In this document: piece by piece, positions 18,655 to 64,000 of the stretch
How positions within the stretch are numbered: the stretch's first letter is position 1
Layout of the letters: each line of letters opens with the position of its first letter
Source of the DNA: Escherichia phage ZX4221
Length of the DNA stretch: 64,000 bases
Sequence record: OR498728.1
Strand: one strand, 5' to 3'
Made by a program: the position numbers and the translations under genes
The notes under the pieces: generated by a model
Seen by the model: the letters and a program-made list of their open reading frames with translations, nothing else
The model's database searches: none
What the model was told of the DNA's origin: nothing

Positions 18655-18954
18655 TTAATCTGCCAGCCTTAAATTAAAATTAACACCAAATTTTTCGCAT
18701 ACTTCCAACATATACTCAAGGGAGACATTACCAGTGAGGTGGATTATGTTGGATACACGAGCCTGAGAGATACCACAAATTTTAGCAACTTGCTCTTGGG
18801 AAAGACCTCTGGATTTAATCTCTCTCTTAAAACGATGTGCAACGAAATCTCTCATTTCGTCTACATCCATTGGACAAACATAACTCTCCATTTCAGCCTC
18901 TCTGTCAGCCTCCCAATCATCTTGTGGAGCATAAGGGTCAAAAACCTCATTCAT
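18655..18954 (-). CDS. helix-turn-helix DNA-binding protein (putative)
   Basis: HTH-like segment LSQEQVAKICGISQARVSNI; start moved to in-frame ATG at 18954 with GGAAG RBS. Confidence 0.45.
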   Translation of the reverse strand: MNEVFDPYAPQDDWEADREAEMESYVCPMDVDEMRDFVAHRFKREIKSRGLSQEQVAKICGISQARVSNIIHLTGNVSLEYMLEVCEKFGVNFNLRLAD

Positions 18955-19661: not shown

Positions 19662-19727
19662 CATCCTTCCATACCAAACCTCACCTGACCTCGCCTAACC
19701 CTACCTTACCCCACCATACAGCACCTT
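19662..19727. repeat. pentamer-periodic C/A-rich array (ACCNN-like)
   Basis: ACC recurring at about 5 nt spacing; G-poor on plus strand. Confidence 0.6.
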
Positions 19728-19764
19728 ATTAAAACACCCTGTTTAAAGACCTTTTAAAAAGGTA

Positions 19765-19790
19765 AGTCTCATTTTAATGTAGCTGAGACT
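19765..19790. repeat. conserved hairpin copy 1 (AGTCTCA-loop-TGAGACT)
   Basis: 7 bp stem, loop TTTTAATGTAGC, followed by AACTACCCATAC; recurs at 19896 and 21279. Confidence 0.6.
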
Positions 19791-19801
19791 AACTACCCAT
19801 A

Positions 19802-19856
19802 CCTCACCCTACCAGACCCTACCAGACCAGACCTTACCCTACCAGACCCTACCGAA
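19802..19856. repeat. tandem pentamer array (11 x ACCNN)
   Basis: ACCCT ACCAG ACCCT ACCAG ACCAG ACCTT ACCCT ACCAG ACCCT ACCGA read directly. Confidence 0.7.
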
Positions 19857-19895
19857 CATCACTTAAAAACCCTCTTAGAAGACTCTTAAGTGATG
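19857..19895. repeat. inverted repeat ATCACTTAA...TTAAGTGAT copy 1
   Basis: 9 bp arms, about 19 nt loop; second copy at 21386-21424. Confidence 0.55.
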
Positions 19896-19923
19896 TAATC
19901 GAATTTTAATGTAGCTCCGATTA
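19896..19923. repeat. conserved hairpin copy 2 with compensatory stem (TAATCGa / TCCGATTA)
   Basis: same loop ATTTTAATGTAGC and same AACTACCCATAC tail as copy 1 but a different base-paired stem. Confidence 0.55.
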
Positions 19924-19932
19924 ACTACCCAT

Positions 19933-19981
19933 ACCTCACCTCACCCAACCATACCATGCCTTGCCAGACCGCACCTTACCT
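19933..19981. repeat. C/A-rich pentamer-periodic array
   Basis: CTCACCTCACCCAACCATACCATGCCTTGCCAGACCGCACCTTACC. Confidence 0.5.
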
Positions 19982-20011
19982 CATTAAAAGACCCTCTTAA
20001 AAGACCTTTTA

Positions 20012-20040
20012 AAAAGGAGCCTCCGAAGAGGCTACCTAGT
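20012..20040 (-). terminator. terminator-like hairpin for minus-strand gene 20045..20485
   Basis: AGCCTC-CGAA-GAGGCT; on minus strand followed by CCTTTTT. Confidence 0.5.
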
Positions 20041-20044
20041 CAAC

Positions 20045-20485
20045 TTAGAAAGGTTTTCTACGTTGCTTGTTAATGTTAGCTTTCATAGCAGCTAAATGGT
20101 TTTGCTGTTCAATCAGTCGTGAACGTTCTTGATGACTAAGCGCCATAGTGTTCACATTCTCAATTGCTTGAGTGGCTTGCTTTAAAGCTCGACCAATCTT
20201 ACCAGACATTTTGCGTTTTGCAATAGTTGCTTGATGCTTAGGTTCAACCACACGATAACCAACACCCATTGAAGCAACCAGGTAAATCTTCTCTTCTTTA
20301 AGAAGCTTTTCAATAAACTTCTCAAGTCGGTTTAGACGTGTAAGTGCATAAGCCTTCATTTCATCTTCGTACTTAACAATGTCACCTTGATAAGTTGGCT
20401 TCACAATACCTAAGAAGGTGTCCATCTCGGAATGTGATACAGTGTCGCCGTAACTAAACTTTGCTGCTAATGCTTTTGTATTCAT
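20045..20485 (-). CDS. hypothetical protein (repeat-flanked cassette gene 2)
   Basis: 146 aa, basic C-terminus; no motif recognised. Confidence 0.4.
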   Translation of the reverse strand: MNTKALAAKFSYGDTVSHSEMDTFLGIVKPTYQGDIVKYEDEMKAYALTRLNRLEKFIEKLLKEEKIYLVASMGVGYRVVEPKHQATIAKRKMSGKIGRALKQATQAIENVNTMALSHQERSRLIEQQNHLAAMKANINKQRRKPF

Positions 20486-20487
20486 AA

Positions 20488-21093
<606 letters not shown>

Positions 21094-21176
21094 TTAGTTG
21101 ATTGTTAAGTTGTTTGTAAAGAACCCTCAACAGAAGACTCTTTAGAAACTTGGTAGATTTTTAACGTGGCTACTAC

Positions 21177-21238
21177 CATCCACCCACACCGTGCCACACC
21201 ACACCACACCATACCCAACTCCACCTAATCCTACCACA
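21177..21238. repeat. C/A-rich pentamer-periodic array
   Basis: CCATCCACCCACACCGTGCCACACCACACCACACCATACCC... Confidence 0.6.
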
Positions 21239-21278
21239 CCTTATTAAAAGACCCTCTTAAAGACCTTTTAAAAAGATA

Positions 21279-21304
21279 AGTCTCATTTTAATGTAGCTGA
21301 GACT
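21279..21304. repeat. conserved hairpin copy 3 (AGTCTCA-loop-TGAGACT)
   Basis: identical to copy 1, with the same upstream AAGACCTTTTAAAAAG and downstream AACTACCCATAC. Confidence 0.6.
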
Positions 21305-21316
21305 AACTACCCATAC

Positions 21317-21385
21317 CGAACCTCACCGCACCATACTACACCTGACACCACCTTACACCACCGCACCATACCTGACCGAGCTACA
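21317..21385. repeat. C/A-rich pentamer-periodic array
   Basis: CTCACCGCACCATACTACACCTGACACCACCTTACACCACCGCACCATACC. Confidence 0.55.
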
Positions 21386-21424
21386 CATCACTTAAAAACC
21401 CTTTTCAAAGACTCTTAAGTGATG
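21386..21424. repeat. inverted repeat ATCACTTAA...TTAAGTGATG copy 2
   Basis: matches 19857-19895. Confidence 0.55.
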
Positions 21425-52155: not shown

Positions 52156-52179
52156 AGGCTGCTTCGGCGGCCTTTTTTA
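52156..52179 (+). terminator. terminator-like hairpin
   Basis: GGCTGC-TTCG-GCGGCC then TTTTTT. Confidence 0.5.
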
Positions 52180-52202
52180 TTTGTATTTTGTGCAGAGTGC
52201 TG

Positions 52203-55495: not shown

Positions 55496-56281
55496 ATGGG
55501 TATTGTAAAAATCATCAAAGGTGATATCTTTGACGCATTTGATAAAGGTAAATTTGATATCATTGGTCATGGTTGCAACTGTATGAATTTCATGGGTGCA
55601 GGTATTGCAGCAACTATTTCTAAGCGTTATCCAAAAGTGTATGATACTGACACAGAAGTTTACCTGTTTGCAGGTGGCATTCGCCACAAACCTTGTGAAA
55701 ATTTACTCGGTAATTTCTCTGTAGCACGTTTAAAACAAGGTCGTATAGCTAACCTTTACACCCAACTCCATACTGGTAAAGATGCCCGATACAGTGCTTT
55801 AGAGTCATCTTTGAAGCAGCTTAACAGATACTGTGAAGTCAATCAGTTGAAGAAAGTCGGGTTACCTATGATTGGTGCAGGTATCGGTGGGCTAGACCCT
55901 CAAGCCGTCACAGTCATCATCAATCAGGTGATGAAGAGTGTAGATGTTTATCTGTATGTCTATGAAGGAGAGATGTACCACAAGTTACGCTCAGGTTGGA
56001 AGAACTACTGTGAACCAGAGTACTTTGCAGGTGTAGTTGTCTTCACAGATAACGCAGTTACCCTCTTCAGACGAAGAAAAGGTAAGATACATCAAAGTAA
56101 CCCTCCGGTTGAAAAGATGTCTCTAAGTAACGCTCTAGTTACCCACCTGTCGAAGAGCAACCACAGGATTGCTGTAACATTTGGTAGTGATGCAGAAACT
56201 TATATCTATGCAAGAACTGATGAGGATATCGAGACAGTTTTTTCTTCACCAGAAGTTACCTTCTTAGACGCAAAGAACTAA
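55496..56281 (+). CDS. macrodomain protein (ADP-ribose binding/hydrolase-like)
   Basis: IKGDIF, FDIIGHGCNCMNFMGAGIAATI and VGLPMIGAGIGGLD match macro-domain signature blocks as recalled. Confidence 0.55.
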   Translation: MGIVKIIKGDIFDAFDKGKFDIIGHGCNCMNFMGAGIAATISKRYPKVYDTDTEVYLFAGGIRHKPCENLLGNFSVARLKQGRIANLYTQLHTGKDARYSALESSLKQLNRYCEVNQLKKVGLPMIGAGIGGLDPQAVTVIINQVMKSVDVYLYVYEGEMYHKLRSGWKNYCEPEYFAGVVVFTDNAVTLFRRRKGKIHQSNPPVEKMSLSNALVTHLSKSNHRIAVTFGSDAETYIYARTDEDIETVFSSPEVTFLDAKN

Positions 56282-56337
56282 GAAACTCTGTAGAATATTC
56301 ACAATAGACTAAGCCTTTCTTATCTGGTAGATTTTTC

Positions 56338-56550
56338 AGGTAAGGAGGGCTTTTTCATTTCAGGATTGTGCAGGTAGAGTTCTGTAGAGAAGTCTGTAGA
56401 GAGAATTTTGAACTCCAAAGAGAAAATTCATTTTCAAACTGTGCAGGTAATCTCCAAAGAGCTTTTTCATTTTCAAAACGTGCAGAGAAAAATCAGGTCG
56501 GGCAAGAAAAATCATTTTAGAATTGTGCAGGTAGGTGGGTGCAGGTGGGG
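56338..56550. repeat. iteron-like degenerate direct repeats (TTCATTTTCA..TGTGCAGGTA)
   Basis: GTGCAG motif at about 56370, 56442, 56472, 56527 and 56539, each preceded by TTCATTTT-like sequence; CTGTAGAG repeated three times. Confidence 0.55.
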
Positions 56551-56719: not shown

Positions 56720-56798
56720 TTGACTCTTTGAGTATGGTTATCTAATATTTGCATCAGACGGGCAAGCAAGCCCACTTCCTAAACTGGAGAATCTAAAA
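56720..56798 (+). promoter_or_regulatory. strong sigma70-like promoter (TTGACT-17-TAATAT) with A15 tract upstream and leader hairpin
   Basis: TTGACT 56720-56725, TAATAT 56743-56748, hairpin GGGCAAGCAAGCCC, conserved RBS region CCTAAACTGGAGAATCTAAAAATG. Confidence 0.55.
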
Positions 56799-57005
56799 AT
56801 GCTTTACAGTCGTGAATTGATGGTTACAACTAACGTTAACACAAAGGTAAAACGTTTTTACATGCAAATTTGTGACGTATGGTCTAGAATATCAGAGGCT
56901 GACTATTGCAACTATGTAGAAACGGCTATTAATTCTAATTGCTACCTTACAAGAAACACTAAGAAATTTACAAGGCAGACAGCGATTTACTACTACGACA
57001 AATAA
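56799..57005 (+). CDS. small early protein (hypothetical)
   Basis: 68 aa; conserved leader/RBS cassette. Confidence 0.4.
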   Translation: MLYSRELMVTTNVNTKVKRFYMQICDVWSRISEADYCNYVETAINSNCYLTRNTKKFTRQTAIYYYDK

Positions 57006-57093
57006 AGTACTTTACAGGGGGCTTAAAAGTTGATATCTTAAGCCCCAGATAAAGAGCTTTACTAAATTAACCCTTAAACTAGGAGATTCAAAA
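57003..57093 (+). repeat. intergenic cassette type A (hairpin GGGGCTTAA..TTAAGCCCC + conserved RBS)
   Basis: AAGTACTTTACAGGGGGCTT...AGCCCCAGATAAAGAGCTTTAC...TAAACTAGGAGATTCAAAAATG. Confidence 0.6.
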
Positions 57094-57474
57094 ATGGCTT
57101 ATCGTGCACCGAAATTCATCAACAAAGACAACTTCCGCAACGCACTGGAGAAGTCACTTGATGAAAAATTTAACGGCAAATTGATTGTTGTCCACGCATT
57201 CAATTTTAAGTATGATATTAACGGGAATAAAATCAACCATTACACGGCAACCATGTTAGATGGCACGCTATCAAGTGAAAAAGCCGTACTGAATGCACTT
57301 GCAGGACGTGGTAAAAACCTGATAAGATGCGATAAGAGACGTTATCAGGGTGGCGCATATGGTTATGATGATGCTGTTTATCATCTTGAAAATATGGGCT
57401 ATTCAGTGGAAAAAGCTGGAGTGTCTCAAATAATCGGCAGTGACGGCTATGTGACAATTTTCAAAATTAACTGA
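57094..57474 (+). CDS. small early protein (hypothetical)
   Basis: 126 aa. Confidence 0.45.
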   Translation: MAYRAPKFINKDNFRNALEKSLDEKFNGKLIVVHAFNFKYDINGNKINHYTATMLDGTLSSEKAVLNALAGRGKNLIRCDKRRYQGGAYGYDDAVYHLENMGYSVEKAGVSQIIGSDGYVTIFKIN

Positions 57475-57562
57475 TAAAGTACTTTACAAGGGGCTTATAG
57501 TTCGATAAAGTAAGCCCCAGATAAAGAGCTTTACCACTCAATCCTAAATTGGAGATTCTAAA
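57475..57562 (+). repeat. intergenic cassette type A
   Basis: CTGATAAAGTACTTTACAAGGGGCTTATAGTTCGATAAAGTAAGCCCCAGATAAAGAGCTTTACCACT...GGAGATTCTAAAATG. Confidence 0.65.
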
Positions 57563-57820
57563 ATGGCTATTATCAAAAACGTTGTAATTGCTGCAAAAAC
57601 TCGTGATGACGCTCGCGTTATGGCTAAAAAGTTATGCGGAAAAGTTGTTGACAACGGGAAACAATCTGCTGTAAGGTGGAGCGTGAAGGCTGATAAACAA
57701 CTAACCTTAAAACGCAGTTCAAACAATCTTTTTAAAGGTGTAAAATCACTCGGTAAAGTGAACGTGTTTACCAAAAAAGGCTATAAAATGCACTTATCAT
57801 TAACTGGCAATTTAATCTGA
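57563..57820 (+). CDS. small early protein (hypothetical, basic)
   Basis: 85 aa. Confidence 0.45.
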   Translation: MAIIKNVVIAAKTRDDARVMAKKLCGKVVDNGKQSAVRWSVKADKQLTLKRSSNNLFKGVKSLGKVNVFTKKGYKMHLSLTGNLI

Positions 57821-57908
57821 TAAAGTACTTTACAGGGGGCTTAAAAGCTGATATCTTAAGCCCCAGATAAAGAGCTTTACCACTAAATCCTAAACTGGAG
57901 ATTCAAAA
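57821..57908 (+). repeat. intergenic cassette type A
   Basis: same cassette with variant hairpin loop. Confidence 0.65.
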
Positions 57909-58421
57909 ATGAAAACTGTAGACGCTACCTTTGAAGTTGTAAAAGAAAAATTCACCATTATTTATGAAGCTGTCAATTGCTTTGAAGCAAGCCATAATCT
58001 CGATAATTGGGAGTTTACAAACGACCATCAAGGCGGTGTGACTGTTAAAAATCCTAACTGTCAGCATAATGATTTTAAATATGCAATCCCTTTGCATTAC
58101 AGCCTTAAACAGCTTTCAAGTGACTATGCAAAACAAGGCCGCGATAATCCATCGAAAGAGGCTTACACGAGCTTACAGAAAGAACTAGAAAGAGATTTAG
58201 AGGCTTCAGAGTATAACCTTGCCGCGAAAGTTGTGGATGCAAACGGTAGCACGGTTTTAGAAAGTTTTTATCTTGGTTATGCTTTCGATTGGTGCTATCG
58301 TGACGGTGATGATTTAGAGGATAGACTAAAAGAAGAGGTGAACAACGCAGACGCAGAATCTGAAGTATTAGAACGTTTGGAATCGTTGAAAGACTCAGTG
58401 ATGAATATCTTTAAGAACTAA
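57909..58421 (+). CDS. small early protein (hypothetical)
   Basis: 170 aa. Confidence 0.45.
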   Translation: MKTVDATFEVVKEKFTIIYEAVNCFEASHNLDNWEFTNDHQGGVTVKNPNCQHNDFKYAIPLHYSLKQLSSDYAKQGRDNPSKEAYTSLQKELERDLEASEYNLAAKVVDANGSTVLESFYLGYAFDWCYRDGDDLEDRLKEEVNNADAESEVLERLESLKDSVMNIFKN

Positions 58422-58511
58422 ATAGATTTCTTTACACGGGGTTATCAAGCTGGTAGGATAGCCCCAGATAAAGAGATTTATCACTAAATCCTTAAACTAG
58501 GAGATTCAAAA
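58422..58511 (+). repeat. intergenic cassette type A (divergent copy)
   Basis: TTTCTTTACACGGGGTTATC...GATAGCCCCAGATAAAGAGATTTATCACTAAATCC...GGAGATTCAAAAATG. Confidence 0.55.
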
Positions 58512-58808
58512 ATGAAACTATCAAATAAAGTCCGTGAAAATCTAAGCAAGTTGCTTAATAAAATTGATTTCATTGAAACATCAAGGAATAGTCATGATGT
58601 TATGGAATGGTTACACGGAAAAATCAAAGGTCGTCGTGTAGTGATTTGCTTATGGAATAGTTGCAGGGAATATAAAAAACCTGTATTACAAGTCAATATC
58701 TATGATGATACTTTTAAAAGCCCTGTAAAGTCTAAAAGCGATTTATTAGAATCTTATGAGATAACTGTAAATGGCAAGGTATCACGTAAAGAGGAAGCAC
58801 CATGTTAA
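58512..58808 (+). CDS. small early protein (hypothetical)
   Basis: 98 aa. Confidence 0.45.
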   Translation: MKLSNKVRENLSKLLNKIDFIETSRNSHDVMEWLHGKIKGRRVVICLWNSCREYKKPVLQVNIYDDTFKSPVKSKSDLLESYEITVNGKVSRKEEAPC

Positions 58809-59134
58809 TGATGGGTATCACTGCAATCATTGCCATTATAGCACTTTACAAGGCTTATAGCGCATATAATTTGGCAAGTAAGGCAATCACGCAGCAGGTC
58901 AATAATAACCTTGTAATGAGCTTTCTGGAGCGTTTAAGCGATGAACAAATAAAACGGTTAGAAATGAGCTTCAGATTTCAATCAAAAACTTATCAAATCA
59001 GCGACATTTTCAAAGATGATTTTCAGCTTGTCGATGATTATAACTCTCTGATAAATGCTTTAAATATCAGTGATTTAAAAGATTATCATGCTGTAATAGT
59101 TCAAGAATTGAGCAAACGAAAAAATTCCTCTTGA
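58802..59134 (+). CDS. small membrane-anchored protein (hypothetical)
   Basis: 110 aa, N-terminal hydrophobic segment; overlaps previous gene by 7 nt with no cassette between. Confidence 0.4.
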   Translation: MLMMGITAIIAIIALYKAYSAYNLASKAITQQVNNNLVMSFLERLSDEQIKRLEMSFRFQSKTYQISDIFKDDFQLVDDYNSLINALNISDLKDYHAVIVQELSKRKNSS

Positions 59135-59140
59135 TTTTGG

Positions 59141-59224
59141 TTTTTAAAACAAGTAAATTACTAATCAACGGGGAGGTAATGACCTTCCCCACTAAGTAAA
59201 GTCCTTAAACTAGGAGATTCAAGA
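59141..59224 (+). promoter_or_regulatory. intergenic cassette type B: promoter TTGATT-17-TAAATT + leader hairpin + conserved RBS
   Basis: -35 59141-59146, -10 59164-59169, hairpin GGGGAGGTAATGACCTTCCCC. Confidence 0.55.
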
Positions 59225-59383
59225 ATGTTTTGTGCAGGTGATAAAGTTGTCTGGAATGATATAGATGACGGTTTATGTACGAAAGTTGTTGTTATCTTAG
59301 AAATTGATTATATCACTGGTGTTGCAACTGTAGCAGATAATGATATAATCTTTGATGTCTTAATTAGTGAACTGTCAAAATAA
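59225..59383 (+). CDS. small early protein (52 aa, not in ORF track)
   Basis: MFCAGDKVVWNDIDDG...; preceded by type B cassette. Confidence 0.4.
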   Translation: MFCAGDKVVWNDIDDGLCTKVVVILEIDYITGVATVADNDIIFDVLISELSK

Positions 59384-59407
59384 AACCTTAAACTAGGAGC
59401 TTTTAAA

Positions 59408-59680
59408 ATGTACACTACTAACAACGGTCGCACTTTAAACATAACCCTACGCCACTATGTGAACGGTGTAATGCACTTCGAGGATTTACAAGCTGAACAA
59501 CATATATTGGATTGGCAAGTAGCAGGACTCCAAAAAACTGCTACCGGATACGGGAAAAAGATTCCAACTAGTTGGAAAGTTCACTATGAAGGACGTTTGC
59601 GCAGAATTTATCAAGATGTTTACAGCAATAGCGCAGCAAGTTACATCATGGTAAAAGGTAAAAAGCTGCATTTAGTGTAA
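59408..59680 (+). CDS. small early protein (hypothetical)
   Basis: 90 aa; partial cassette AAACCTTAAACTAGGAGCTTTTAAAATG upstream. Confidence 0.4.
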   Translation: MYTTNNGRTLNITLRHYVNGVMHFEDLQAEQHILDWQVAGLQKTATGYGKKIPTSWKVHYEGRLRRIYQDVYSNSAASYIMVKGKKLHLV

Positions 59681-59765
59681 AGTACTTTACAAGGGGCTTA
59701 TAGTTCGATAAAGTAAGCCCCAGATAAAGAGCTTTACCACTCAATCCTAAATTGGAGATTCTAAA
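59681..59765 (+). repeat. intergenic cassette type A
   Basis: near-identical to 57475-57562. Confidence 0.65.
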
Positions 59766-60170
59766 ATGGCTATTAATAACCGTGAGTTATCAATCTTAAA
59801 AGCACGTTTGACCGTTAACCGGATTAATGTTATTACATCATCAGCACCGGATGAAACATTGCACAACATTATCGGGAAGATTCAAAGTGTTATCTTAGAC
59901 GTTGAAAACGTAAAAAACTCATTGTCTGACGTTGCAGCAGGTATCACGCTAGACGGTGCACAATATGAAATGGCTGACATGTTAGGCAAATCAAAGGTAA
60001 TGAATAAAGAGCTTGATTTAAAAATGTTTCGTTTTGCTGTTAAAGTGTGGCTATCTGTTGAGTATGACGCAAATTTTGCAATCGCTGACTTTTTCGCAAC
60101 ATGGTTGCAACGTAATTTAACAAATCATGATTTTCGTGATGTCTGTGATGCAATTTATGCAGAACTCTAA
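59766..60170 (+). CDS. small early protein (hypothetical)
   Basis: 134 aa. Confidence 0.45.
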   Translation: MAINNRELSILKARLTVNRINVITSSAPDETLHNIIGKIQSVILDVENVKNSLSDVAAGITLDGAQYEMADMLGKSKVMNKELDLKMFRFAVKVWLSVEYDANFAIADFFATWLQRNLTNHDFRDVCDAIYAEL

Positions 60171-60180
60171 AAAAATTTTG

Positions 60181-60274
60181 TTGACACTGGTTTTTAAAAC
60201 AAGTAAATTACCAATCAACGGGGAGGGAATGAACTTCCCCACTAAATAAAGTCCTTAAACTAGGAGATTCAAAA
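60181..60274 (+). promoter_or_regulatory. intergenic cassette type B: promoter TTGACA-17-TAAATT + leader hairpin + RBS
   Basis: -35 60181-60186, -10 60204-60209, hairpin GGGGAGGGAATGAACTTCCCC. Confidence 0.6.
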
Positions 60275-60472
60275 ATGGCTATTATTAATGGTTTAAACAT
60301 TGAAACTACTCATATCAAAGATATCAAAGTTGGCGATATAGTCCTTTTTCACGGCGTAGAAAAAACCGTCACTGAAAAGGATATCAAGGAGGATTCATTC
60401 ATGGGTCGGACGCTTTTCGGTGATTCTTATTGCTTAGGTTACCTTGCAGTTTTAAAAGTTGTAAAAAATTAA
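60275..60472 (+). CDS. small early protein (hypothetical)
   Basis: 65 aa. Confidence 0.4.
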   Translation: MAIINGLNIETTHIKDIKVGDIVLFHGVEKTVTEKDIKEDSFMGRTLFGDSYCLGYLAVLKVVKN

Positions 60473-60564
60473 CTGATAAAGTACTTTACAAGGGGCTTAT
60501 AGTTCGATAAAGTAAGCCCCAGATAAAGAGCTTTACCACTAAATCCTAAACTGGAGATTCTAAA
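60473..60564 (+). repeat. intergenic cassette type A
   Basis: near-identical to 57475-57562. Confidence 0.65.
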
Positions 60565-61107
60565 ATGAAATGCTTTCACGGTACTACTCAAGAAAACTTT
60601 ACCAACCTGCTTAATAACGGTGATAAACCATCAGGCGCATGGAATTGTTCGGATATGGACGGCAATTTTTACGTGTATCCAGAAAATAAAATCTATGGCG
60701 ACGATGAGGAAGAAATAATCTCTGAAGGTATCCAGCAGGCTCTAGGTAATGCAGCTATCACCGCAGCTTTCCAGATGAAAACCCAAAATATTGTTATCTT
60801 AGAACTTGATATCCCAGAGGATGACCTAAATGATGATTATTCTTGTGATAATATGTCGAGCGTGGCAAGTTTTACAGAGTATTTTGATATAAGCTGGATT
60901 AAAAAGGTTTACATCACTGAATTTAATGCTATGTTTTCACCTTTTTGTCTTCCTTCACTGGATAACCCAAATTTAAACTATCTTGATGAGTCTCTGGAAC
61001 TTCTCGCTAAAAGTGTTCAACAATCAGACAGTATTCAGGTTTTTTGTGACATCATGGATACACTAACAGGAAACATTGCAGAAGAGGATTTAAAGAGCTT
61101 TTTCTAA
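60565..61107 (+). CDS. small early protein (hypothetical, acidic)
   Basis: 180 aa. Confidence 0.45.
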   Translation: MKCFHGTTQENFTNLLNNGDKPSGAWNCSDMDGNFYVYPENKIYGDDEEEIISEGIQQALGNAAITAAFQMKTQNIVILELDIPEDDLNDDYSCDNMSSVASFTEYFDISWIKKVYITEFNAMFSPFCLPSLDNPNLNYLDESLELLAKSVQQSDSIQVFCDIMDTLTGNIAEEDLKSFF

Positions 61108-61173
61108 AAACCTATGCAATCACCTTATAAACACTATTCAGCCCCTACAAGGGGCTTCTAGGAGGCTTTAATC

Positions 61174-61407
61174 ATGCTTACAACCGTTTACCTCATCCTT
61201 TCTATTTGTAATGGTCATTCGTGCGATTTTAAAGGGCTTGAGGAGTTTACAGGAAGTAAAGAAAATGCTATTCAAGTTTGCCAGATAGCAAGGCAAGACT
61301 ATCCCGCCAGTGATGATATTCAATGCTACTTTAAGACAGAAGATGACGATGGAATCTATTTCGACAGTGTTGATGGTCAATATGAAATTATCATTGAAAA
61401 AGACTAG
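61174..61407 (+). CDS. small early protein (hypothetical)
   Basis: 77 aa; hairpin GCCCCTACAAGGGGC and AGGAGG RBS upstream. Confidence 0.4.
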   Translation: MLTTVYLILSICNGHSCDFKGLEEFTGSKENAIQVCQIARQDYPASDDIQCYFKTEDDDGIYFDSVDGQYEIIIEKD

Positions 61408-61498
61408 ACAAGCCTGATAAAAGTCTGTAAATTACACATCAACGGGGAGGGAATGACCTTCCCCACTAAATAAAGTCCTTAAACTAGGAGATTCAAAA
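61405..61498 (+). promoter_or_regulatory. intergenic cassette type B: promoter TAGACA-17-TAAATT + leader hairpin + RBS
   Basis: -35 61405-61410, -10 61428-61433; -35 overlaps the stop of the upstream gene. Confidence 0.55.
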
Positions 61499-61840
61499 AT
61501 GGCTTATGTAACCGTAATTACCGATAAAGAGGATTCATCTTGGTCAACTCAAGTAAGTGACAAGATGTCACCTATGCAGTGCCTAAAATACTTTGAGCAG
61601 TGGAATAAAGGAGAGGATATCAGCCCCTTTCAAGTGATGCAGATTATCCATACAGACAACGAAGGGATTAAAACGGTTTTAAATAGTGAGCACTACGCAA
61701 CCCGATTTGAAACGAGATGTAAAACGATGAAGTTATTACGTGAATCCGGTTATGCCCATATCGCCGCGTTAATCTGGGATGACCTGCTAAAAAGTCAGCG
61801 TATCAGCTATGTAAAACCTGAAAAAATATTCATCAGTTAA
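61499..61840 (+). CDS. small early protein (hypothetical)
   Basis: 113 aa. Confidence 0.45.
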   Translation: MAYVTVITDKEDSSWSTQVSDKMSPMQCLKYFEQWNKGEDISPFQVMQIIHTDNEGIKTVLNSEHYATRFETRCKTMKLLRESGYAHIAALIWDDLLKSQRISYVKPEKIFIS

Positions 61841-61969
61841 TCAACAACTTACAAAAAACTTTTAAAAAAGTATTGACAATACCCCTTGACATTGGTAACT
61901 TTGTTCGAGGGGGTTTATCTAAAAGGGATTAACTTAAAAGATTCTTTATAGATAAACTTAAAAAATTAC

Positions 61970-62060
61970 TTGCAATCAGATATCAAAACAAGTAAATTAC
62001 TAATCAACGGGAGGGAATGACCTTCCCCACTAAGTAAAGTCCTAAACTGGAGAATCTAAA
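61970..62060 (+). promoter_or_regulatory. intergenic cassette type B: promoter TTGCAA-17-TAAATT + leader hairpin + RBS
   Basis: -35 61970-61975, -10 61993-61998; extra TTGACA boxes and a CCCC/GGGG hairpin at 61873-61900. Confidence 0.55.
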
Positions 62061-62591
62061 ATGAATAAGTTCAAAGCTATCAACTTCATTCGTTCAAATG
62101 CTGTAATGTCTAAACCTGTTAAAGATACCTATGAATTTCGCTGCAATGGTGTGCACTTTGCAACCATCACCAAATCAGAAAACGGGGCTTATTACGTTCA
62201 TCGTCGTAATGCTGCAACCGTTGTAGTCTCACATTTTATGCAAGCTGTAGCGGAATTATTACCGCTATTCTTAGAGATTTATCTAGATGATTGCAAAAAC
62301 GTTCACAGCCACGTTAAAAACCTTTTAAACGGTTATAAAATGGCTTATGAGCGTTCTATCAAGTCCTTAAACAAGTTCTATAAAGCCCCTGTAAATACCG
62401 TTTCAATGGCCTACGGCGTAGGTGGCTGGACTGTTAACCTTTCTCTAGTGGAAGAAATCGAGCTTTACGACCATCGACCTAGCGGTTACTCTAAGACACT
62501 TGGTGAAGGTTTAACGTTCAATATCAAGAACTTAGAAAAAACTTTAAAAGATATTGAAAAAGATATTGACGAGACAATCAAAAGTCTGTAA
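62061..62591 (+). CDS. small early protein (hypothetical)
   Basis: 176 aa. Confidence 0.45.
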   Translation: MNKFKAINFIRSNAVMSKPVKDTYEFRCNGVHFATITKSENGAYYVHRRNAATVVVSHFMQAVAELLPLFLEIYLDDCKNVHSHVKNLLNGYKMAYERSIKSLNKFYKAPVNTVSMAYGVGGWTVNLSLVEEIELYDHRPSGYSKTLGEGLTFNIKNLEKTLKDIEKDIDETIKSL

Positions 62592-62657
62592 ATTGTCAAT
62601 CAACGGGGAGGGAATGACCTTCCCCACTAAGTAAAGTCCTAAACTGGAGATTCAAAA
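62566..62657 (+). promoter_or_regulatory. intergenic cassette type B: promoter TTGACG-17-TAAATT + leader hairpin + RBS
   Basis: -35 62566-62571 (inside 3' end of upstream gene), -10 62589-62594, hairpin 62605-62625. Confidence 0.6.
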
Positions 62658-62906
62658 ATGGCAACTATCCGCGCAATTGTAAATTCTTATGGCTGCTACA
62701 CTCTGGACGTTAAATTTGATATAGGTGGGACTGATGAGTGTTTCGAACTGGTGAAGACAGTCATTAAACAAGTTATCCCAGACTATAACCCTACTGATGA
62801 CTTCTGGAAAGATGCAGTAAAAGAGGCGCTGAACGATGAATATCATTACCATTATTGGGGTGATTTGATTGTCTCCCTGTACTACAATAAACAAGGTTGC
62901 AACTAA
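62658..62906 (+). CDS. small early protein (hypothetical)
   Basis: 82 aa. Confidence 0.45.
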   Translation: MATIRAIVNSYGCYTLDVKFDIGGTDECFELVKTVIKQVIPDYNPTDDFWKDAVKEALNDEYHYHYWGDLIVSLYYNKQGCN

Positions 62907-62915
62907 TCGACGCAA

Positions 62916-62995
62916 CGGGGCTAAATAGCCCCAGATACCTTTACAGCCCCTTTATATAGATTCGATAGAGTCTATCTCATAGGGGCTTTTTTACG
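62916..62995 (+). terminator. compound hairpin/terminator at end of small-gene cluster
   Basis: GGGGCTAAATAGCCCC, then CCCCTTTATATAG...CTCATAGGGGC followed by TTTTTT. Confidence 0.45.
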
Positions 62996-63399
62996 TCCTA
63001 TCAAATCCCTTATACAACCCTTTCCCTTTCCTTTCCAGAATCTTACTAGACCTTAAAAAGCAATAACTCTATAGCTTACTCTATAGCCTTTTATTAAATC
63101 AACTTAAATATAAGCCCATAACCCGAAAGGGAAGGGCAACCATTAATTGGTATTGTTACCAATCCCTTAAACGCTCTATAAAGCCCTATAACGGCCTTAT
63201 TAACCTAACTTAAGGGATTGCATTACCTCACTCTAAAAAGCCCTTTATAGAGCTTTCTAGAGCCTTAAAAGAATCTTATAAGGGTGTGAGCTTTATCATC
63301 TCGTTAGAATTCTTGTGAATAACTAAACAACCCCTTGATAGTCACTAAAAAGTGTGTTATAGGGGCTTTAAAGTTACTTTGAAGTAGCTTAAAAGTTAC

Positions 63400-63990
63400 G
63401 TAAATGCTAGCCCCCTTAACATTTTCTTAACAATTTCTTAACAACCCCTACATAGTTATGCTTTTAAGGCACTTGTTAGCAACTTGTTAGCCCCTTGTTA
63501 AATATCTGTTAAGACCACGTAAAAGCCTTGTAAGAGTCTTTAGCATAGCCTTTAAAGCCTCTGTAAAGCCCTATAAAGAGGTGTTTGTATAGTTGGGGTG
63601 TAATTACTAGGAAGAGACTTAAAAGAGCTTACAAAGAGCTATAGAGAGCTTTTAAGAGGGCTATTTAGAGAATCACTAAGAGGGAAAGGGAACGATAAGA
63701 AAAGAGATAGTGACCATGTTAATAGCTTGTTAAAAAGATTAAACACTTGTTAGGAACTTGTTAATTATCTTAACAAAATAACTCTTAAAAATTAACTTGT
63801 TAGCTCTTGTTAGTCATCTGTTAAGACTCTGTAAAGTCTATGTATCAACTGTTAAGAACTTGTTACACCCTTGTTAGTTCTGTTAAGAATCTGTTAAGAC
63901 CTCTGAAGAGATGTTAAGAGGATGTAGTAGCTGTTAAGAGATTGTTAAGGATATTTTAAAATTCTGCAAAGTACTTGTAAGGGAGCTGTT
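63400..63990. repeat. dense array of degenerate heptamer repeats (CTTGTTAG / CTGTTAAG / TTGTAAG)
   Basis: about 20 copies in about 590 bp; no ORF of 60 aa or more on either strand from 62916 to 64000. Confidence 0.6.
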
Positions 63991-64000
63991 AAGGGCTACC

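What the first reader, a model, noticed from the sequence alone, without database searches (positions are those of the whole stretch)
56799..62906. Cluster of about 15 small genes with individual regulatory cassettes: candidate host-takeover or anti-defence region
About 6 kb encodes small proteins (52-180 aa) with no motif I can recognise, nearly all preceded by a type A or type B cassette and an almost invariant translation initiation region CCT(T)AAACT(A)GGAGATTC(A/T)AAAATG. In lytic phages such modular arrays of small independently expressed genes are typically early genes for host shut-off or defence evasion, and are common places to find uncharacterised inhibitors. One product (58802-59134) has an N-terminal membrane anchor.
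Basis: inference. Interest (0 to 1): 0.65.

Follow-up and report, generated by a model that had tools for sequence, protein, structure and literature searches.

The report
Shuffling early-gene cassettes in Felix O1-like phage
This 6-kb stretch of a Felix O1-like coliphage holds 15 small accessory genes, most carrying their own copy of a repeated promoter-plus-hairpin cassette that also serves as a recombination site for adding and removing genes; this layout is already known from T4-like phages, so it is a tidy but fairly ordinary case.

Summary
The window is a Felixounavirus, about 90% identical to phage skuden. Positions 56799-62906 hold 15 same-strand ORFs of 52-180 aa. Eleven are preceded by a type A (6) or type B (5) cassette, and 13 carry a cluster-specific translation initiation region.

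Each cassette is a sigma-70-type promoter joined to a GGGG...CCCC hairpin and a GGAG ribosome site. In A the promoter is TTTACA-N17-TAnnnT; in B it is TTGnnn-N17-TAAATT. The promoter hexamers stay invariant while the spacer and loop vary, and the stems show compensatory and U·G changes across three genera.

In 7 relatives, 13 of 16 listed indel gaps have junctions inside a repeated cassette or initiation region. This matches the "PeSL" cassettes described only for T4-like phages. Felix O1's authors listed the repeats in 2010 without interpreting them.

No product matches Pfam or NCBIfam, and PHROGs families are all "unknown". One product (60565-61107) folds as an ADP-ribosyltransferase-like domain. 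One has an N-terminal hydrophobic segment. The Felix O1 orthologue of the last gene was found in virions.

"Early accessory region" is supported. "Host take-over or anti-defence" remains plausible but unproven.

The parts
56311..56360 (+). Intrinsic terminator closing the upstream operon (left border of the cluster)
   Evidence: One search finds a 17-pair stem followed by a T run. It matches terminator t13 of Felix O1 (PMC3185647).
56720..56748 (+). Promoter of gene 1, TTGACT-N17-TAATAT
   Evidence: 9 of 12 consensus positions. It is followed by the small hairpin GGGCAAGCAAGCCC at 56760-56773 and by the shared initiation region.
56799..57005 (+). Gene 1, 68 aa
   Evidence: phrog_5293, unknown. 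Corresponds to Bas63_0098 and Felix O1 ORF15.
57006..57093 (+). Type A cassette: TTTACA-N17-TATCTT at 57011-57039, with the hairpin GGGGCTTAA/TTAAGCCCC spanning the spacer and -10 element, then AGATAAAGAGCTTTAC and the initiation region
57094..57474 (+). Gene 2, 126 aa, pI 9.3
   Evidence: Absent from Felix O1 and Alf5.
57475..57562 (+). Type A cassette (TTTACA-N17-TAAAGT at 57483-57511)
57563..57820 (+). Gene 3, 85 aa, very basic (pI 10.6, charge +14.6)
57821..57908 (+). Type A cassette (57829-57857)
57909..58421 (+). Gene 4, 170 aa, acidic (charge -15). Its Felix O1 orthologue ORF16 peaks at 5 min.
   Evidence: Conserved as far as the Erwinia and Hafnia phages.
58422..58511 (+). Type A cassette, divergent subfamily (TTTACA-N17-TAGGAT at 58431-58459; stem GGGGTTATC/GATAGCCCC with a U·G pair)
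58512..58808 (+). Gene 5, 98 aa
58802..59134 (+). Gene 6, 110 aa, N-terminal hydrophobic segment. Overlaps gene 5 by 7 nt, so it is probably translationally coupled and has no cassette of its own.
59131..59224 (+). Type B cassette: TTGATT-N17-TAAATT, then ACTAATCAAC, then the hairpin GGGGAGGTAATGACCTTCCCC and the initiation region
59225..59383 (+). Gene 7, 52 aa, acidic. Present only here and in skuden among the genomes compared, and flanked by two copies of the initiation region.
59408..59680 (+). Gene 8, 90 aa, preceded by the initiation region only
59681..59765 (+). Type A cassette (59686-59714)
59766..60170 (+). Gene 9, 134 aa. Its Felix O1 orthologue ORF20 peaks at 5 min.
60171..60274 (+). 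Type B cassette (TTGACA-N17-TAAATT at 60181-60209)
60275..60472 (+). Gene 10, 65 aa
60473..60564 (+). Type A cassette (60485-60513)
60565..61107 (+). Gene 11, 180 aa, charge -24. ADP-ribosyltransferase-like fold. Orthologue of Bas63 g107.
   Evidence: PMC11482910
61174..61407 (+). Gene 12, 77 aa, acidic. Preceded by a different hairpin (AGCCCCT-aca-AGGGGCT) and AGGAGG; no A or B cassette.
61405..61498 (+). Type B cassette (TAGACA-N17-TAAATT at 61405-61433)
61499..61840 (+). Gene 13, 113 aa. Its Felix O1 orthologue ORF21 peaks at 5 min.
61970..62060 (+). Type B cassette (TTGCAA-N17-TAAATT), at the end of a 220-nt spacer
62061..62591 (+). Gene 14, 176 aa. Its Felix O1 orthologue ORF22 peaks at 5 min.
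62566..62657 (+). Type B cassette (TTGACG-N17-TAAATT at 62566-62594). Its -35 element lies inside the end of gene 14.
62658..62906 (+). Gene 15, 82 aa, acidic. Its Felix O1 orthologue gp23 was detected in virions.
62917..62992 (+). Right border: a degenerate A-like remnant (GGGGCTAAATAGCCCCAGATACCTTTACA), then a true terminator (a stem plus six T's)
   Evidence: -28 kcal/mol, z -4.1. Corresponds to Felix O1 terminator t23.

Best explanation
The region is the hyperplastic early accessory-gene region of a Felix O1-like myovirus. It is organised by repeated composite cassettes of the PeSL type (promoter-early plus stem-loop).

Shown here: each cassette joins a host sigma-70-type promoter, a G/C-rich hairpin and a fixed GGAG initiation region.

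Inferred:
- Host RNA polymerase starts at each cassette soon after infection, so every gene or gene pair is expressed on its own.
- The type A hairpin sits in the promoter spacer and -10 element. It is therefore present only on read-through RNA from upstream, where it would act as an attenuator or 3' end stabiliser.
- The type B hairpin lies 2-3 nt after the likely start site. It would form the 5' end of the mRNA, where a terminal hairpin would protect against 5'-end-dependent decay.

Shown by comparison: the roughly 90-bp cassettes, and the roughly 25-bp initiation region alone, act as portable homology. Recombination between copies deletes, inserts and swaps gene modules without disturbing their neighbours' expression.

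The cargo is a changeable set of small proteins that probably act on the host. One is an ADP-ribosyltransferase-fold protein, one is membrane-anchored, and one may be carried in the virion. Their targets are unknown.
For: Identity of the phage. The region is Felixounavirus, 88-92% identical to many records.

Promoters.
- All 11 cassettes carry a promoter match at a fixed position.
- In 47 type A copies from 11 genomes, the -35 element is TTTACA in 46. The hexamer 17 bp downstream (18 bp in two copies) is always TAnnnT, although it takes 11 different sequences.
- In alignment A1 the invariant columns are exactly those promoter positions.
- In 41 type B copies, TTG and TAAnnT are fixed, the spacer is kept at 17 bp in nearly all copies while its sequence differs completely, and TCAAC before the hairpin is invariant.

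Hairpins.
- The A stem is 98.1% paired, against at most 57% in slid controls. It has one GC-to-UA compensatory column (8 of 33 copies) and one CG/UG column.
- There are 27 distinct B hairpin variants. The 25 extracted whole all fold, at -9 to -16 kcal/mol; two were cut short by the extraction pattern.

Recombination.
- Gene-order maps show presence and absence bounded by cassettes of the same type.
- In 13 of 16 indel gaps listed across 7 relatives, the single cassette of one genome aligns to both flanking cassettes of the other. The overlap is 58-97 nt for A and B, and 23-35 nt for the initiation region alone.
- Loop variant, initiation-region variant and even A versus B type differ between genomes at orthologous positions.

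Spread. A occurs at 1429 places in 287 phage records, including Erwinia and Hafnia phages. B occurs at 1413 places in 245 records.

Precedent. PeSLs are described with the same parts, the same hairpin positions, GGGG...CCCC stems with G·T pairs, and consensus TTTACW-N17-TAYWAT or TTGACA-N17-TATAAT. Reporter assays showed promoter and terminator activity (PMC2839356; PMC4122927).

Timing and dispensability. See PMC3185647 and PMC11482910.

Against: - No transcription start or end has been mapped for any Felix O1-like phage. I found no transcriptome.
- The cassette hairpins lack the U tract of an intrinsic terminator. The scan flags only the border terminator on the + strand, so 'terminator' is not established here.
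- Promoter-like matches over the whole region are only modestly above shuffled sequence (41 against 26.8, sd 5.0). The case rests on position and conservation, not on counts.
- RT-PCR timing is mixed. Four cluster genes peak at 5 min and three at 25 min. The same table lists several structural genes at 5 min, so it is a coarse guide.
- The compensatory change in the A stem may be a single event in one lineage.
- PeSLs were defined in T4-like phages. This phage is unrelated, so common descent of the cassettes is not implied.
Confidence: 0.72

Rival explanations
1. The cassettes are mainly a co-regulation device. The palindromes TAAAG-N2-CTTTA, one over the -35 element and one at the start of the transcript in type A, would be operators for a phage DNA-binding protein. 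The candidate is the XRE-type helix-turn-helix protein at 18655-18954 (-), the orthologue of Bas63-035. The mini-hairpin that hides part of the GGAG site would be a target for translational shut-off. On this view, recombination between copies is a by-product.
For: - The palindrome occurs twice per type A cassette and nowhere else (9 matches against 0.15 expected).
- AGATAAAGAG after the hairpin is the most conserved stretch across three genera.
- The initiation region is specific to this cluster.
- It folds as CCU[UAAACU]AGG or UCC[UAAACU]GGA.
- The two variants differ by a paired T and A insertion: 63 and 41 copies, with no mixed form among 104.
- The phage encodes an XRE-like regulator.
Against: - Nothing links the regulator to these sites.
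- Type B has no such palindrome.
- The mini-hairpin has only 3 base pairs.
- Perfect linkage of two indels 8 nt apart is also expected from shared ancestry alone.
- This reading does not explain the junction pattern, and it can coexist with the main explanation.
Confidence: 0.2
2. The hairpins are RNA processing or stability elements rather than transcription attenuators. They would be 3' protective hairpins left after cleavage in the A-rich stretch that follows (type A), and 5'-terminal protective hairpins (type B).
For: - There is no U tract after either hairpin.
- U·G pairs occur in 17 of 33 A stems, which indicates folding of the + strand RNA.
- The B hairpin begins 2-3 nt after the invariant TCAAC, which lies 7-8 nt past the -10 element.
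- Both hairpins are followed by a conserved (A/G)TAAAG.
Against: - No cleavage or half-life data exist.
- A PeSL stem-loop reduced reporter expression about as much as a strong terminator (PMC2839356).
- The protective role of 5'-terminal hairpins is taken from general E. coli mRNA-decay knowledge and was not tested here.
Confidence: 0.3
3. The cluster is not a host take-over or anti-defence set. It would be a mixed bag of dispensable genes, some structural or late, that happens to sit behind early-looking promoters.
For: - Felix O1 gp23, the orthologue of gene 15, was found in purified virions with 53% coverage.
- Three genes peak at 25 min.
- No cluster gene is named in the preprint text among the counters or triggers found for 12 defence systems in Bas63.
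Against: - The Bas63 cryo-EM paper does not mention gp98-gp111.
- A small virion-carried acidic protein could be an injected factor.
- Only 12 defence systems and 4 laboratory hosts were tested.
- Gene 11 has a host-modifying type of fold, and its Bas63 orthologue matters on S17-1.
Confidence: 0.2
4. The cassettes are selfish mobile mini-elements, or attC-like sites used by a dedicated recombinase. This would make the region an integron-like array.
For: - Hairpin structure is conserved while the loop sequence varies.
- Each module is a single gene with its own cassette.
- The PeSL authors themselves drew the comparison with integrons (PMC2839356).
Against: - No integrase or transposase is reported in Felixounavirus genomes (PMC8300805).
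- Copies occur only in this one cluster and in one orientation.
- There are no target-site duplications.
- Overlaps of 23-97 nt at the junctions fit plain homologous recombination.
Confidence: 0.04

Closest known systems
PeSL cassettes (promoter-early stem-loop) of T4-like phages RB49/phi1, T4/PST and KVP40/nt-1 (Arbiol et al. 2010, PMC2839356; Comeau et al. 2014, PMC4122927)
   Same: - Same order of parts: the stop codon of the upstream gene in an AT-rich stretch, a sigma-70-type -35/N17/-10 promoter, a G-run/C-run hairpin, then a Shine-Dalgarno site and ATG.
- Same hairpin positions: between the -35 and -10 elements or over the -10 (like type A), or just after the -10 (like type B).
- Stems with G·T pairs.
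- About 90-100 bp long, confined to variable regions full of small genes of unknown function.
- Indels between close relatives are bounded by the cassettes.
   Different: - The host phage belongs to another subfamily (Ounavirinae), with no T4-type transcription factors reported (PMC3185647).
- There are two sharply defined cassette types plus a cluster-specific initiation region that is itself a recombination site.
- All copies lie in one 6-kb array.
- Promoter, terminator and mini-circle activity have not been tested for these copies.
Phage accessory regions, i.e. hotspots of variable counter-defence genes (Silas et al., bioRxiv 10.1101/2023.04.06.535777)
   Same: A cluster of small, fast-changing, mostly dispensable genes between conserved blocks.
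   Different: No gene here has a shown counter-defence function. That work defines such regions by gene turnover, not by a repeated cassette.
ADP-ribosyltransferase fold: the Tpt1/KptA NAD+ lobe, Arr, DarT, toxin A subunits (comparison for gene 11 only)
   Same: - The N-terminal FHGTtxENF aligns with the LFHGTAEKNF of Runella Tpt1.
- The family-invariant residues are H5, Y36 and D91.
   Different: - No Pfam or NCBIfam match.
- Only about 80-105 of 180 residues align.
- The RNA-binding lobe of Tpt1 is absent.
- The catalytic residues were not superposed and activity is unknown.
Repeats listed in the Felix O1 genome paper (Whichard et al. 2010, PMC3185647)
   Same: The paper's 57-bp repeat (CTTTACATGGGGCTTAAAAGTCTGTAAAGTAAGCCCCAGATAAAGAGCTTTACCACT) is type A. 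Its 39-bp repeat (TTGACACTGGTTTTTAGATAGATTAAATTACACATCAAC) is the promoter half of type B.
   Different: The paper listed them as direct repeats only and named other sequences as candidate promoters.

Membership tests
PeSL (promoter-early stem-loop) regulatory cassette | Sigma-70-type promoter with a spacer of about 17 bp | tested here: met
   - type A has TTTACA in 46 of 47 copies and TAnnnT in all 47.
- the invariant columns are the promoter positions.
- in type B, TTG and TAAnnT are invariant and the spacer varies in sequence but is 17 bp in nearly all copies.
PeSL (promoter-early stem-loop) regulatory cassette | Stable G/C-rich stem-loop within or next to the promoter | tested here: met
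   - 98.1% of A-stem cells are paired and one column is compensatory.
- 27 B variants; the 25 extracted whole fold at -9 to -16 kcal/mol.
- single-sequence folds.
PeSL (promoter-early stem-loop) regulatory cassette | Upstream stop codon in an AT-rich stretch at the 5' end; Shine-Dalgarno site and ATG at the 3' end | tested here: met
   read directly from the sequence.
PeSL (promoter-early stem-loop) regulatory cassette | Confined to a hyperplastic region of small genes of unknown function that are largely dispensable | tested here: met
   - copies occur only in the cluster.
- no known function for any product.
- variable gene content between relatives.
- PMC11482910: dispensability in Bas63. 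The cluster spans the end of a uniformly non-essential segment and the start of one with varying essentiality.
PeSL (promoter-early stem-loop) regulatory cassette | Indels between close relatives have their junctions in the cassettes (modular shuffling) | tested here: met
   - 13 of 16 listed gaps, with overlaps of 23-97 nt.
- cassette variants are exchanged at orthologous positions.
PeSL (promoter-early stem-loop) regulatory cassette | Measured promoter and terminator activity; circular excision products | not testable with these tools
   This needs reporter fusions and inverse PCR on infected cells.
PeSL (promoter-early stem-loop) regulatory cassette | Host genome is a T4-like myovirus (the scope of the original description) | tested here: not met
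   Ounavirinae, Felixounavirus. I therefore file it as PeSL-like, a new host lineage, without implying common descent.
Intrinsic (Rho-independent) terminator | G/C-rich hairpin followed directly by a U tract | tested here: not met
   flags only 56311-56352 on the + strand. The cassette hairpins are followed by AGATAAAG or ACTAAATAAAG.
ADP-ribosyltransferase superfamily (gene 11, 60565-61107) | The split beta-sheet NAD+-binding fold | tested here: met
   - model pLDDT 93.7, pTM 0.89.
- a viral protein annotated DarT at E 1.2e-3 and one annotated as a rifampin ADP-ribosyl transferase (Arr) at a non-significant E 0.79.
ADP-ribosyltransferase superfamily (gene 11, 60565-61107) | Catalytic H-Y-E/D or R-S-E residues in the right structural positions | tested here: inconclusive
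   H5 (with G6 and T7), Y36 and D91 are invariant or nearly so in 52 diverse members. FHGT aligns with the HGT of Tpt1 at a non-significant E of 0.64. No residue-level superposition was available.
ADP-ribosyltransferase superfamily (gene 11, 60565-61107) | Sequence match to a curated family model | tested here: not met
   no Pfam or NCBIfam family. PHROGs places it in phrog_3303, of unknown function.
Known anti-defence or host shut-off proteins | Homology to a characterised inhibitor, or a phenotype on a defined defence system | tested here: not met
   - no homology.
- PMC11482910 names no g98-g111 gene among the counters or triggers it found; only g107 is named, as conditionally important on S17-1.

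The most novel reading that the evidence does not exclude
The array could be more than passive homology. It could be a dedicated gene-cassette exchange and co-regulation system shared by the whole Ounavirinae subfamily. In this reading the structure-conserved hairpins and the cluster-specific initiation hairpin are recognised by phage factors, which switch the whole set off together and favour exchange of modules between co-infecting phages. Its cargo would include a previously unclassified family of small H-Y-D-type ADP-ribosyltransferases (275 clusters at 50% identity) that modify a host or defence target.
Probability: 0.12. Interest if true: 0.7.

Novelty: new member of a known kind. Interest (0 to 1): 0.38.

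Why it matters
- It extends the PeSL principle beyond T4-like phages. In that principle, regulatory cassettes double as recombination joints for accessory genes. The extension covers a second, unrelated and therapeutically used myovirus subfamily that includes Felix O1 and Bas63.
- It explains repeats that have sat uninterpreted in the Felix O1 genome paper since 2010.
- It gives phage engineers natural, self-expressing insertion slots.
- It gives a rational list of about 15-20 interchangeable small genes to screen for host-directed or counter-defence activity. The first to test would be the ADP-ribosyltransferase-fold protein and the possibly virion-carried gene 15 product.
- It does not open a new kind of biology.

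Tried and rejected
Protein searches that found no function.
- Pfam, NCBIfam and PHROGs scans of all 15 products gave nothing informative.
- Sequence searches of genes 4, 11 and 14 against solved structures gave nothing significant.
- The word-based homologue searches for genes 11 and 4 returned only Ounavirinae hypothetical proteins.

Structure work on gene 11.
- The afdb50 library was not available.
- Genomic context and names of distant gene 11 relatives were uninformative.

Other searches.
- Rfam gave no real match; the mir-22 hit at E 0.4 is chance.
- I found no transcriptome for Felix O1-like phages.
- No supplementary fitness tables were held for the PhageMaP preprint.

Readings considered and rejected.
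- Hairpin promoters for a phage RNA polymerase, as in N4: Felix O1 encodes no RNA polymerase and the host consensus is present.
- A MotA-type middle promoter: the GCTTA inside the type A stem was the only resemblance, and no such factor is reported.
- MITE-like or transposon elements: single orientation, single locus, no transposase.

Correction. My first script for the -10 check mis-anchored on GTAC. It was corrected.

Full report
**What the window is.** The 6.3 kb around the finding matches 255 phage records at 60-95% identity. Nearly all are Felix O1-like myoviruses of Escherichia, Salmonella, Shigella and Citrobacter. The best match is Escherichia phage skuden, at 90% identity over 100% of the query.
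- The finding corresponds to skuden_99 to skuden_85.
- In Bas63 (JohannRWettstein) it corresponds to bas63_0098 to bas63_0111.
- In Felix O1 it corresponds to ORF15 to ORF23.
- Every one of these genes is annotated "hypothetical protein".

**Check of the observation.** Fifteen + strand ORFs of 52-180 aa fill 56799-62906. The sequence upstream of each and the repeat families give this census:
- Type A precedes genes 2, 3, 4, 5, 9 and 11.
- Type B precedes genes 7, 10, 13, 14 and 15.
- Gene 1 has its own promoter (TTGACT-N17-TAATAT), a small hairpin and the common initiation region.
- Gene 8 has only the initiation region.
- Gene 6 overlaps gene 5.
- Gene 12 has another hairpin and an AGGAGG site.

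The initiation region occurs 13 times in two forms, only between 56778 and 62653 and only on the + strand. There are no other copies in 64 kb even with three substitutions. One form gives 7 matches against 0.27 expected. A profile search finds full-length A and B copies only inside the cluster, both here and in Bas63 positions 50-87 kb. The product of 58802-59134 has the most hydrophobic 19-residue stretch of the set, at its N-terminus.

**Anatomy of the cassettes.**

Type A reads, in order:
- the stop codon of the upstream gene inside TAAAGTACTTTACA, whose core TAAAGTACTTTA is a 12-bp palindrome;
- the -35 element TTTACA;
- a 17-bp spacer that begins the hairpin GGGGCTTA...TAAGCCCC;
- a -10 element that lies in the loop and the 3' arm;
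- AGATAAAGAGCTTTACC;
- the initiation region.

Type B reads, in order:
- a -35 element TTGACA, TTGATT, TTGCAA, TTGACG or TAGACA;
- 17 bp of unrelated spacer;
- TAAATT;
- ACnAATCAAC;
- the hairpin GGGGAGGGAATGACCTTCCCC;
- ACTAA(A/G)TAAAGTCC;
- the initiation region.

The consensus scan places a promoter match at the same relative position in all 11 cassettes. The weaker -10 variants (TATCTT, TAGGAT) are preceded by an extended -10 TG.

**Are the promoters and hairpins under selection?** I collected 47 type A and 41 type B copies from this window and ten relatives in three genera: Felixounavirus, Mooglevirus and Kolesnikvirus.
- In type A, TTTACA is present in 46 of 47 copies.
- The hexamer 17 bp downstream (18 bp in two copies) is TAnnnT in all 47, although it takes 11 different sequences.
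- The invariant columns of the alignment are those promoter positions plus the stem and AGATAAAGA.
- The eight-pair A stem is 98.1% paired, against at most 57% when the partner columns are slid.
- One column changes GC to UA in all eight Erwinia and Hafnia copies. Another is CG in 16 copies and UG in 17. The U·G pairs fit folding of the + strand RNA. The compensatory change may be a single event.
- In type B, TTG, TAAnnT and TCAAC are fixed, while the spacer differs completely between subfamilies and stays 17 bp in nearly all copies.
- There are 27 distinct B hairpin variants, several with length changes on both arms and one with a G-to-T plus C-to-A double change. The 25 that my extraction captured whole all fold, at -9 to -16 kcal/mol. 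The other two were cut short by the search pattern, not by the sequence.
- Single-sequence folds give z-scores of -1.1 to -3.1.

Neither hairpin is followed by a U tract. The true terminators at the two borders are: 56311-56360 and 62946-62992.

**The cassettes are recombination joints.** Gene-order maps show that differences between relatives are whole modules bounded by cassettes of one type:
- Alf5 reads 1-A-5. Felix O1 reads 1-A-4 and 9-B-13.
- skuden has an extra gene between two B copies, after gene 14.
- VpaE1 lacks gene 4.
- Gene 7 is present only here and in skuden.
- The Erwinia and Hafnia phages carry some of the same genes in a different order.

At nucleotide level the alignments listed 16 indel gaps across 7 relatives. 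In 13 of them the single cassette of one genome aligns to both flanking cassettes of the other. The overlap is 58-97 nt for A and B, and 23-35 nt where only the initiation region is repeated, as around gene 7. Six of the 13 are the same gene 7 difference seen in six genomes. The three exceptions are a complex replacement in SP2 and the replaced gene 1 region in humlepung and VpaE1, where the overlap with a cassette is only partial or absent.

This is the footprint of homologous exchange between direct repeats. In addition, the loop variant, the initiation-region variant and even the cassette type differ between genomes in front of the same gene. Gene 15 exists as two alleles, 62% and 91% identical to the window's copy. 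Type A is found at 1429 places in 287 phage records, including Erwinia and Hafnia phages. Type B is found at 1413 places in 245 records.

**Comparison with what is known.** Arbiol et al. (PMC2839356) and Comeau et al. (PMC4122927) described "PeSLs" in T4-like phages. Their features are:
- cassettes of about 100 bp, made of a strong sigma-70-type promoter and a stem-loop "generally involving GGGG...CCCC", with G·T pairs;
- the stem-loop placed between the -35 and -10 elements, over the -10, or just after it;
- an AT-rich 5' part that includes the upstream stop codon, and a Shine-Dalgarno site and ATG at the 3' end;
- concentration in hyperplastic regions of small non-essential ORFs;
- marking of the indels between close relatives;
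- production of small circles by recombination.

Their reported consensus promoters, TTTACW-N17-TAYWAT and TTGACA-N17-TATAAT, are close to types A and B here. Every sequence-level feature of that definition is met here. The activity assays cannot be done with these tools. The host lineage differs: PeSLs have been described only in T4-like myoviruses, and a full-text search for the term found no use of it for Felix O1-like phages. The Felix O1 genome paper listed a 57-bp and a 39-bp direct repeat, which are type A and the promoter half of type B. It did not interpret them and proposed other sequences as promoters.

**Timing and dispensability.**
- Felix O1 RT-PCR placed ORF16, 20, 21 and 22 (genes 4, 9, 13, 14) and the flanking ORF13 at maximum 5 min.
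- ORF17, 19 and 23 (genes 5, 8, 15) peaked at 25 min, and none of the cluster peaked at 60 min.
- That table also lists several structural genes at 5 min, so it is a coarse guide.
- g107 was more important on strain S17-1.
- No g98-g111 gene is named in the text among the counters or triggers found for 12 defence systems.
- The fitness tables themselves were not available.

**The products.**
- None matches Pfam or NCBIfam, and all PHROGs families are "unknown function".
- Charges are extreme for several: gene 11 at -24, gene 4 at -15, gene 12 at -11 and gene 3 at +14.6.
- Gene 11 (60565-61107, 95% identical to Bas63 g107) has only Ounavirinae relatives by word search. A profile search finds 275 clusters at 50% identity, all stand-alone proteins of about 175-200 aa.
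- In that family H5, W26, Y36, D91 and S93 are invariant, and G6, T7, S29, C94, N96 and M97 nearly so.
- With the deep alignment the model reaches pLDDT 93.7 and pTM 0.89.
- The N-terminal FHGTTQENF aligns with LFHGTAEKNF at the start of the NAD+ lobe of Runella Tpt1, but not significantly (E 0.64).
- This agrees with the preprint's remark of "slight structural homology" to that enzyme, so it is not new. Activity and target are unknown.
- Felix O1 gp23 (9679 Da, 4 peptides, 53% coverage in whole-virion mass spectrometry) is ORF23. I calculate an average mass of 9684.6 Da for its 82 aa. It is the orthologue of gene 15. That gene's product may therefore travel in the particle. The Bas63 cryo-EM paper does not mention gp111.

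**How it most likely works.**

Shown:
- repeated cassettes with conserved promoter hexamers, conserved hairpins and a cluster-specific initiation region;
- module-wise gain, loss and exchange at the cassettes.

Inferred:
- Host RNA polymerase fires at each cassette early in infection.
- Read-through RNA folds the type A hairpin.
- Type B transcripts start 2-3 nt before their hairpin. From general knowledge of E. coli mRNA decay, that would protect the 5' end.
- The uniform initiation region gives every newly acquired gene a working ribosome site.

Open questions:
- whether the hairpins attenuate transcription, as shown for one PeSL, or act on RNA stability;
- whether the TAAAG-N2-CTTTA palindromes are recognised by phage factors such as the XRE-type protein at 18655-18954;
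- whether the three-pair hairpin that covers part of GGAG is recognised in the same way. Its two forms differ by a paired T and A insertion, with 63 and 41 copies and no mixed form.

**Verdict.** The reading "early, independently expressed accessory genes" is supported. "Host take-over or anti-defence" is a reasonable expectation for part of the cargo but is not shown, and one gene product is virion-associated in Felix O1. The real addition is that the cassettes are PeSL-like recombination joints conserved across Ounavirinae. That makes this a new member of a known kind, of moderate interest.

Noticed in passing
window 55496-56281 (+): The gene just upstream of the cluster encodes a macrodomain protein (Pfam Macro, E 5e-7). 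Its best NCBIfam match is the macrodomain of the DarG antitoxin, a DNA ADP-ribosyl glycohydrolase (E 1e-14, below the family cut-off). It has an extra C-terminal domain of about 100 aa and is annotated 'putative phosphatase' in relatives. It could remove ADP-ribose marks laid down by DarT-type defences. It sits 4 kb from the ADP-ribosyltransferase-fold gene 11.
   Followed up: partly
window 62658-62906 (+) and L003:5558-5806: Felix O1 gp23, the orthologue of gene 15 at 65% identity, is listed among virion proteins by whole-phage mass spectrometry (PMC3185647). The reported 9679 Da fits the 82-aa ORF. It is a small acidic protein encoded in an early-type cluster yet present in particles, so it may be an injected protein.
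   Followed up: partly
window 56340-56545 (+): Four copies of a repeat of about 30-45 nt, (T)TTCATTTTCA-N3-4-TGTGCAGGTA, follow directly after the border terminator. A similar TTGTGCAG follows another terminator at 52156-52195. The exact motif is not found elsewhere in the window. Its function is unknown. Bas63 annotates two small - strand ORFs in the same place.
   Followed up: partly
window 63000-64000: Downstream of the cluster lies a gene-free stretch at least 1 kb long within the window (about 1.6 kb in Bas63, 70.5-72.2 kb). It is packed with short repeats of 10-11 bp period (CTTGTTAG, CTGTTAAGA, CTATAAAG) and lies between converging transcription units. The helical phasing suggests an array of protein-binding sites, such as an origin or a packaging or regulatory region.
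   Followed up: partly
window 19674-21424: Five copies of a repeat of about 89 nt. Each is made of 7-bp CCNNACC-type units followed by TAAAAGACCCTCTTAAAAGACCTTTTAAAAAGG (families D3, D4 and D11), between - strand genes.
   Followed up: no
window 18655-18954 (-): A protein of about 100 aa with an XRE-type helix-turn-helix (LSQEQVAKICGISQARVSNII). It is the orthologue of Bas63-035, a 'putative transcriptional regulator' reported to trigger the DRT7 defence system (bioRxiv 10.64898/2026.04.18.719102). It is a candidate for binding the palindromes in type A cassettes, but that is untested.
   Followed up: partly
L011 (VpaE1), L003 (Felix O1), L006 (Alf5): The Gifsy-encoded defence protein GiPD474 blocks Felix O1 and Alf5 but not VpaE1 (PMC12724215). 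VpaE1 carries cluster genes 2 and 3, which both sensitive phages lack. With only three phages and many other differences between them, this is a lead only.
   Followed up: partly
GU169904.1, 130-135 kb (hit H3): The record named 'Staphylococcus phage SA1' (147 kb) carries this Felix O1-like region at 90% identity. The record is probably a mixed or mislabelled assembly.
   Followed up: no
window 61841-61969: The 220-nt spacer before gene 14 holds two overlapping TTGACA motifs (61873 and 61887) and a short G-rich element in addition to the type B cassette. There may be an extra promoter, but the scan did not score one.
   Followed up: no
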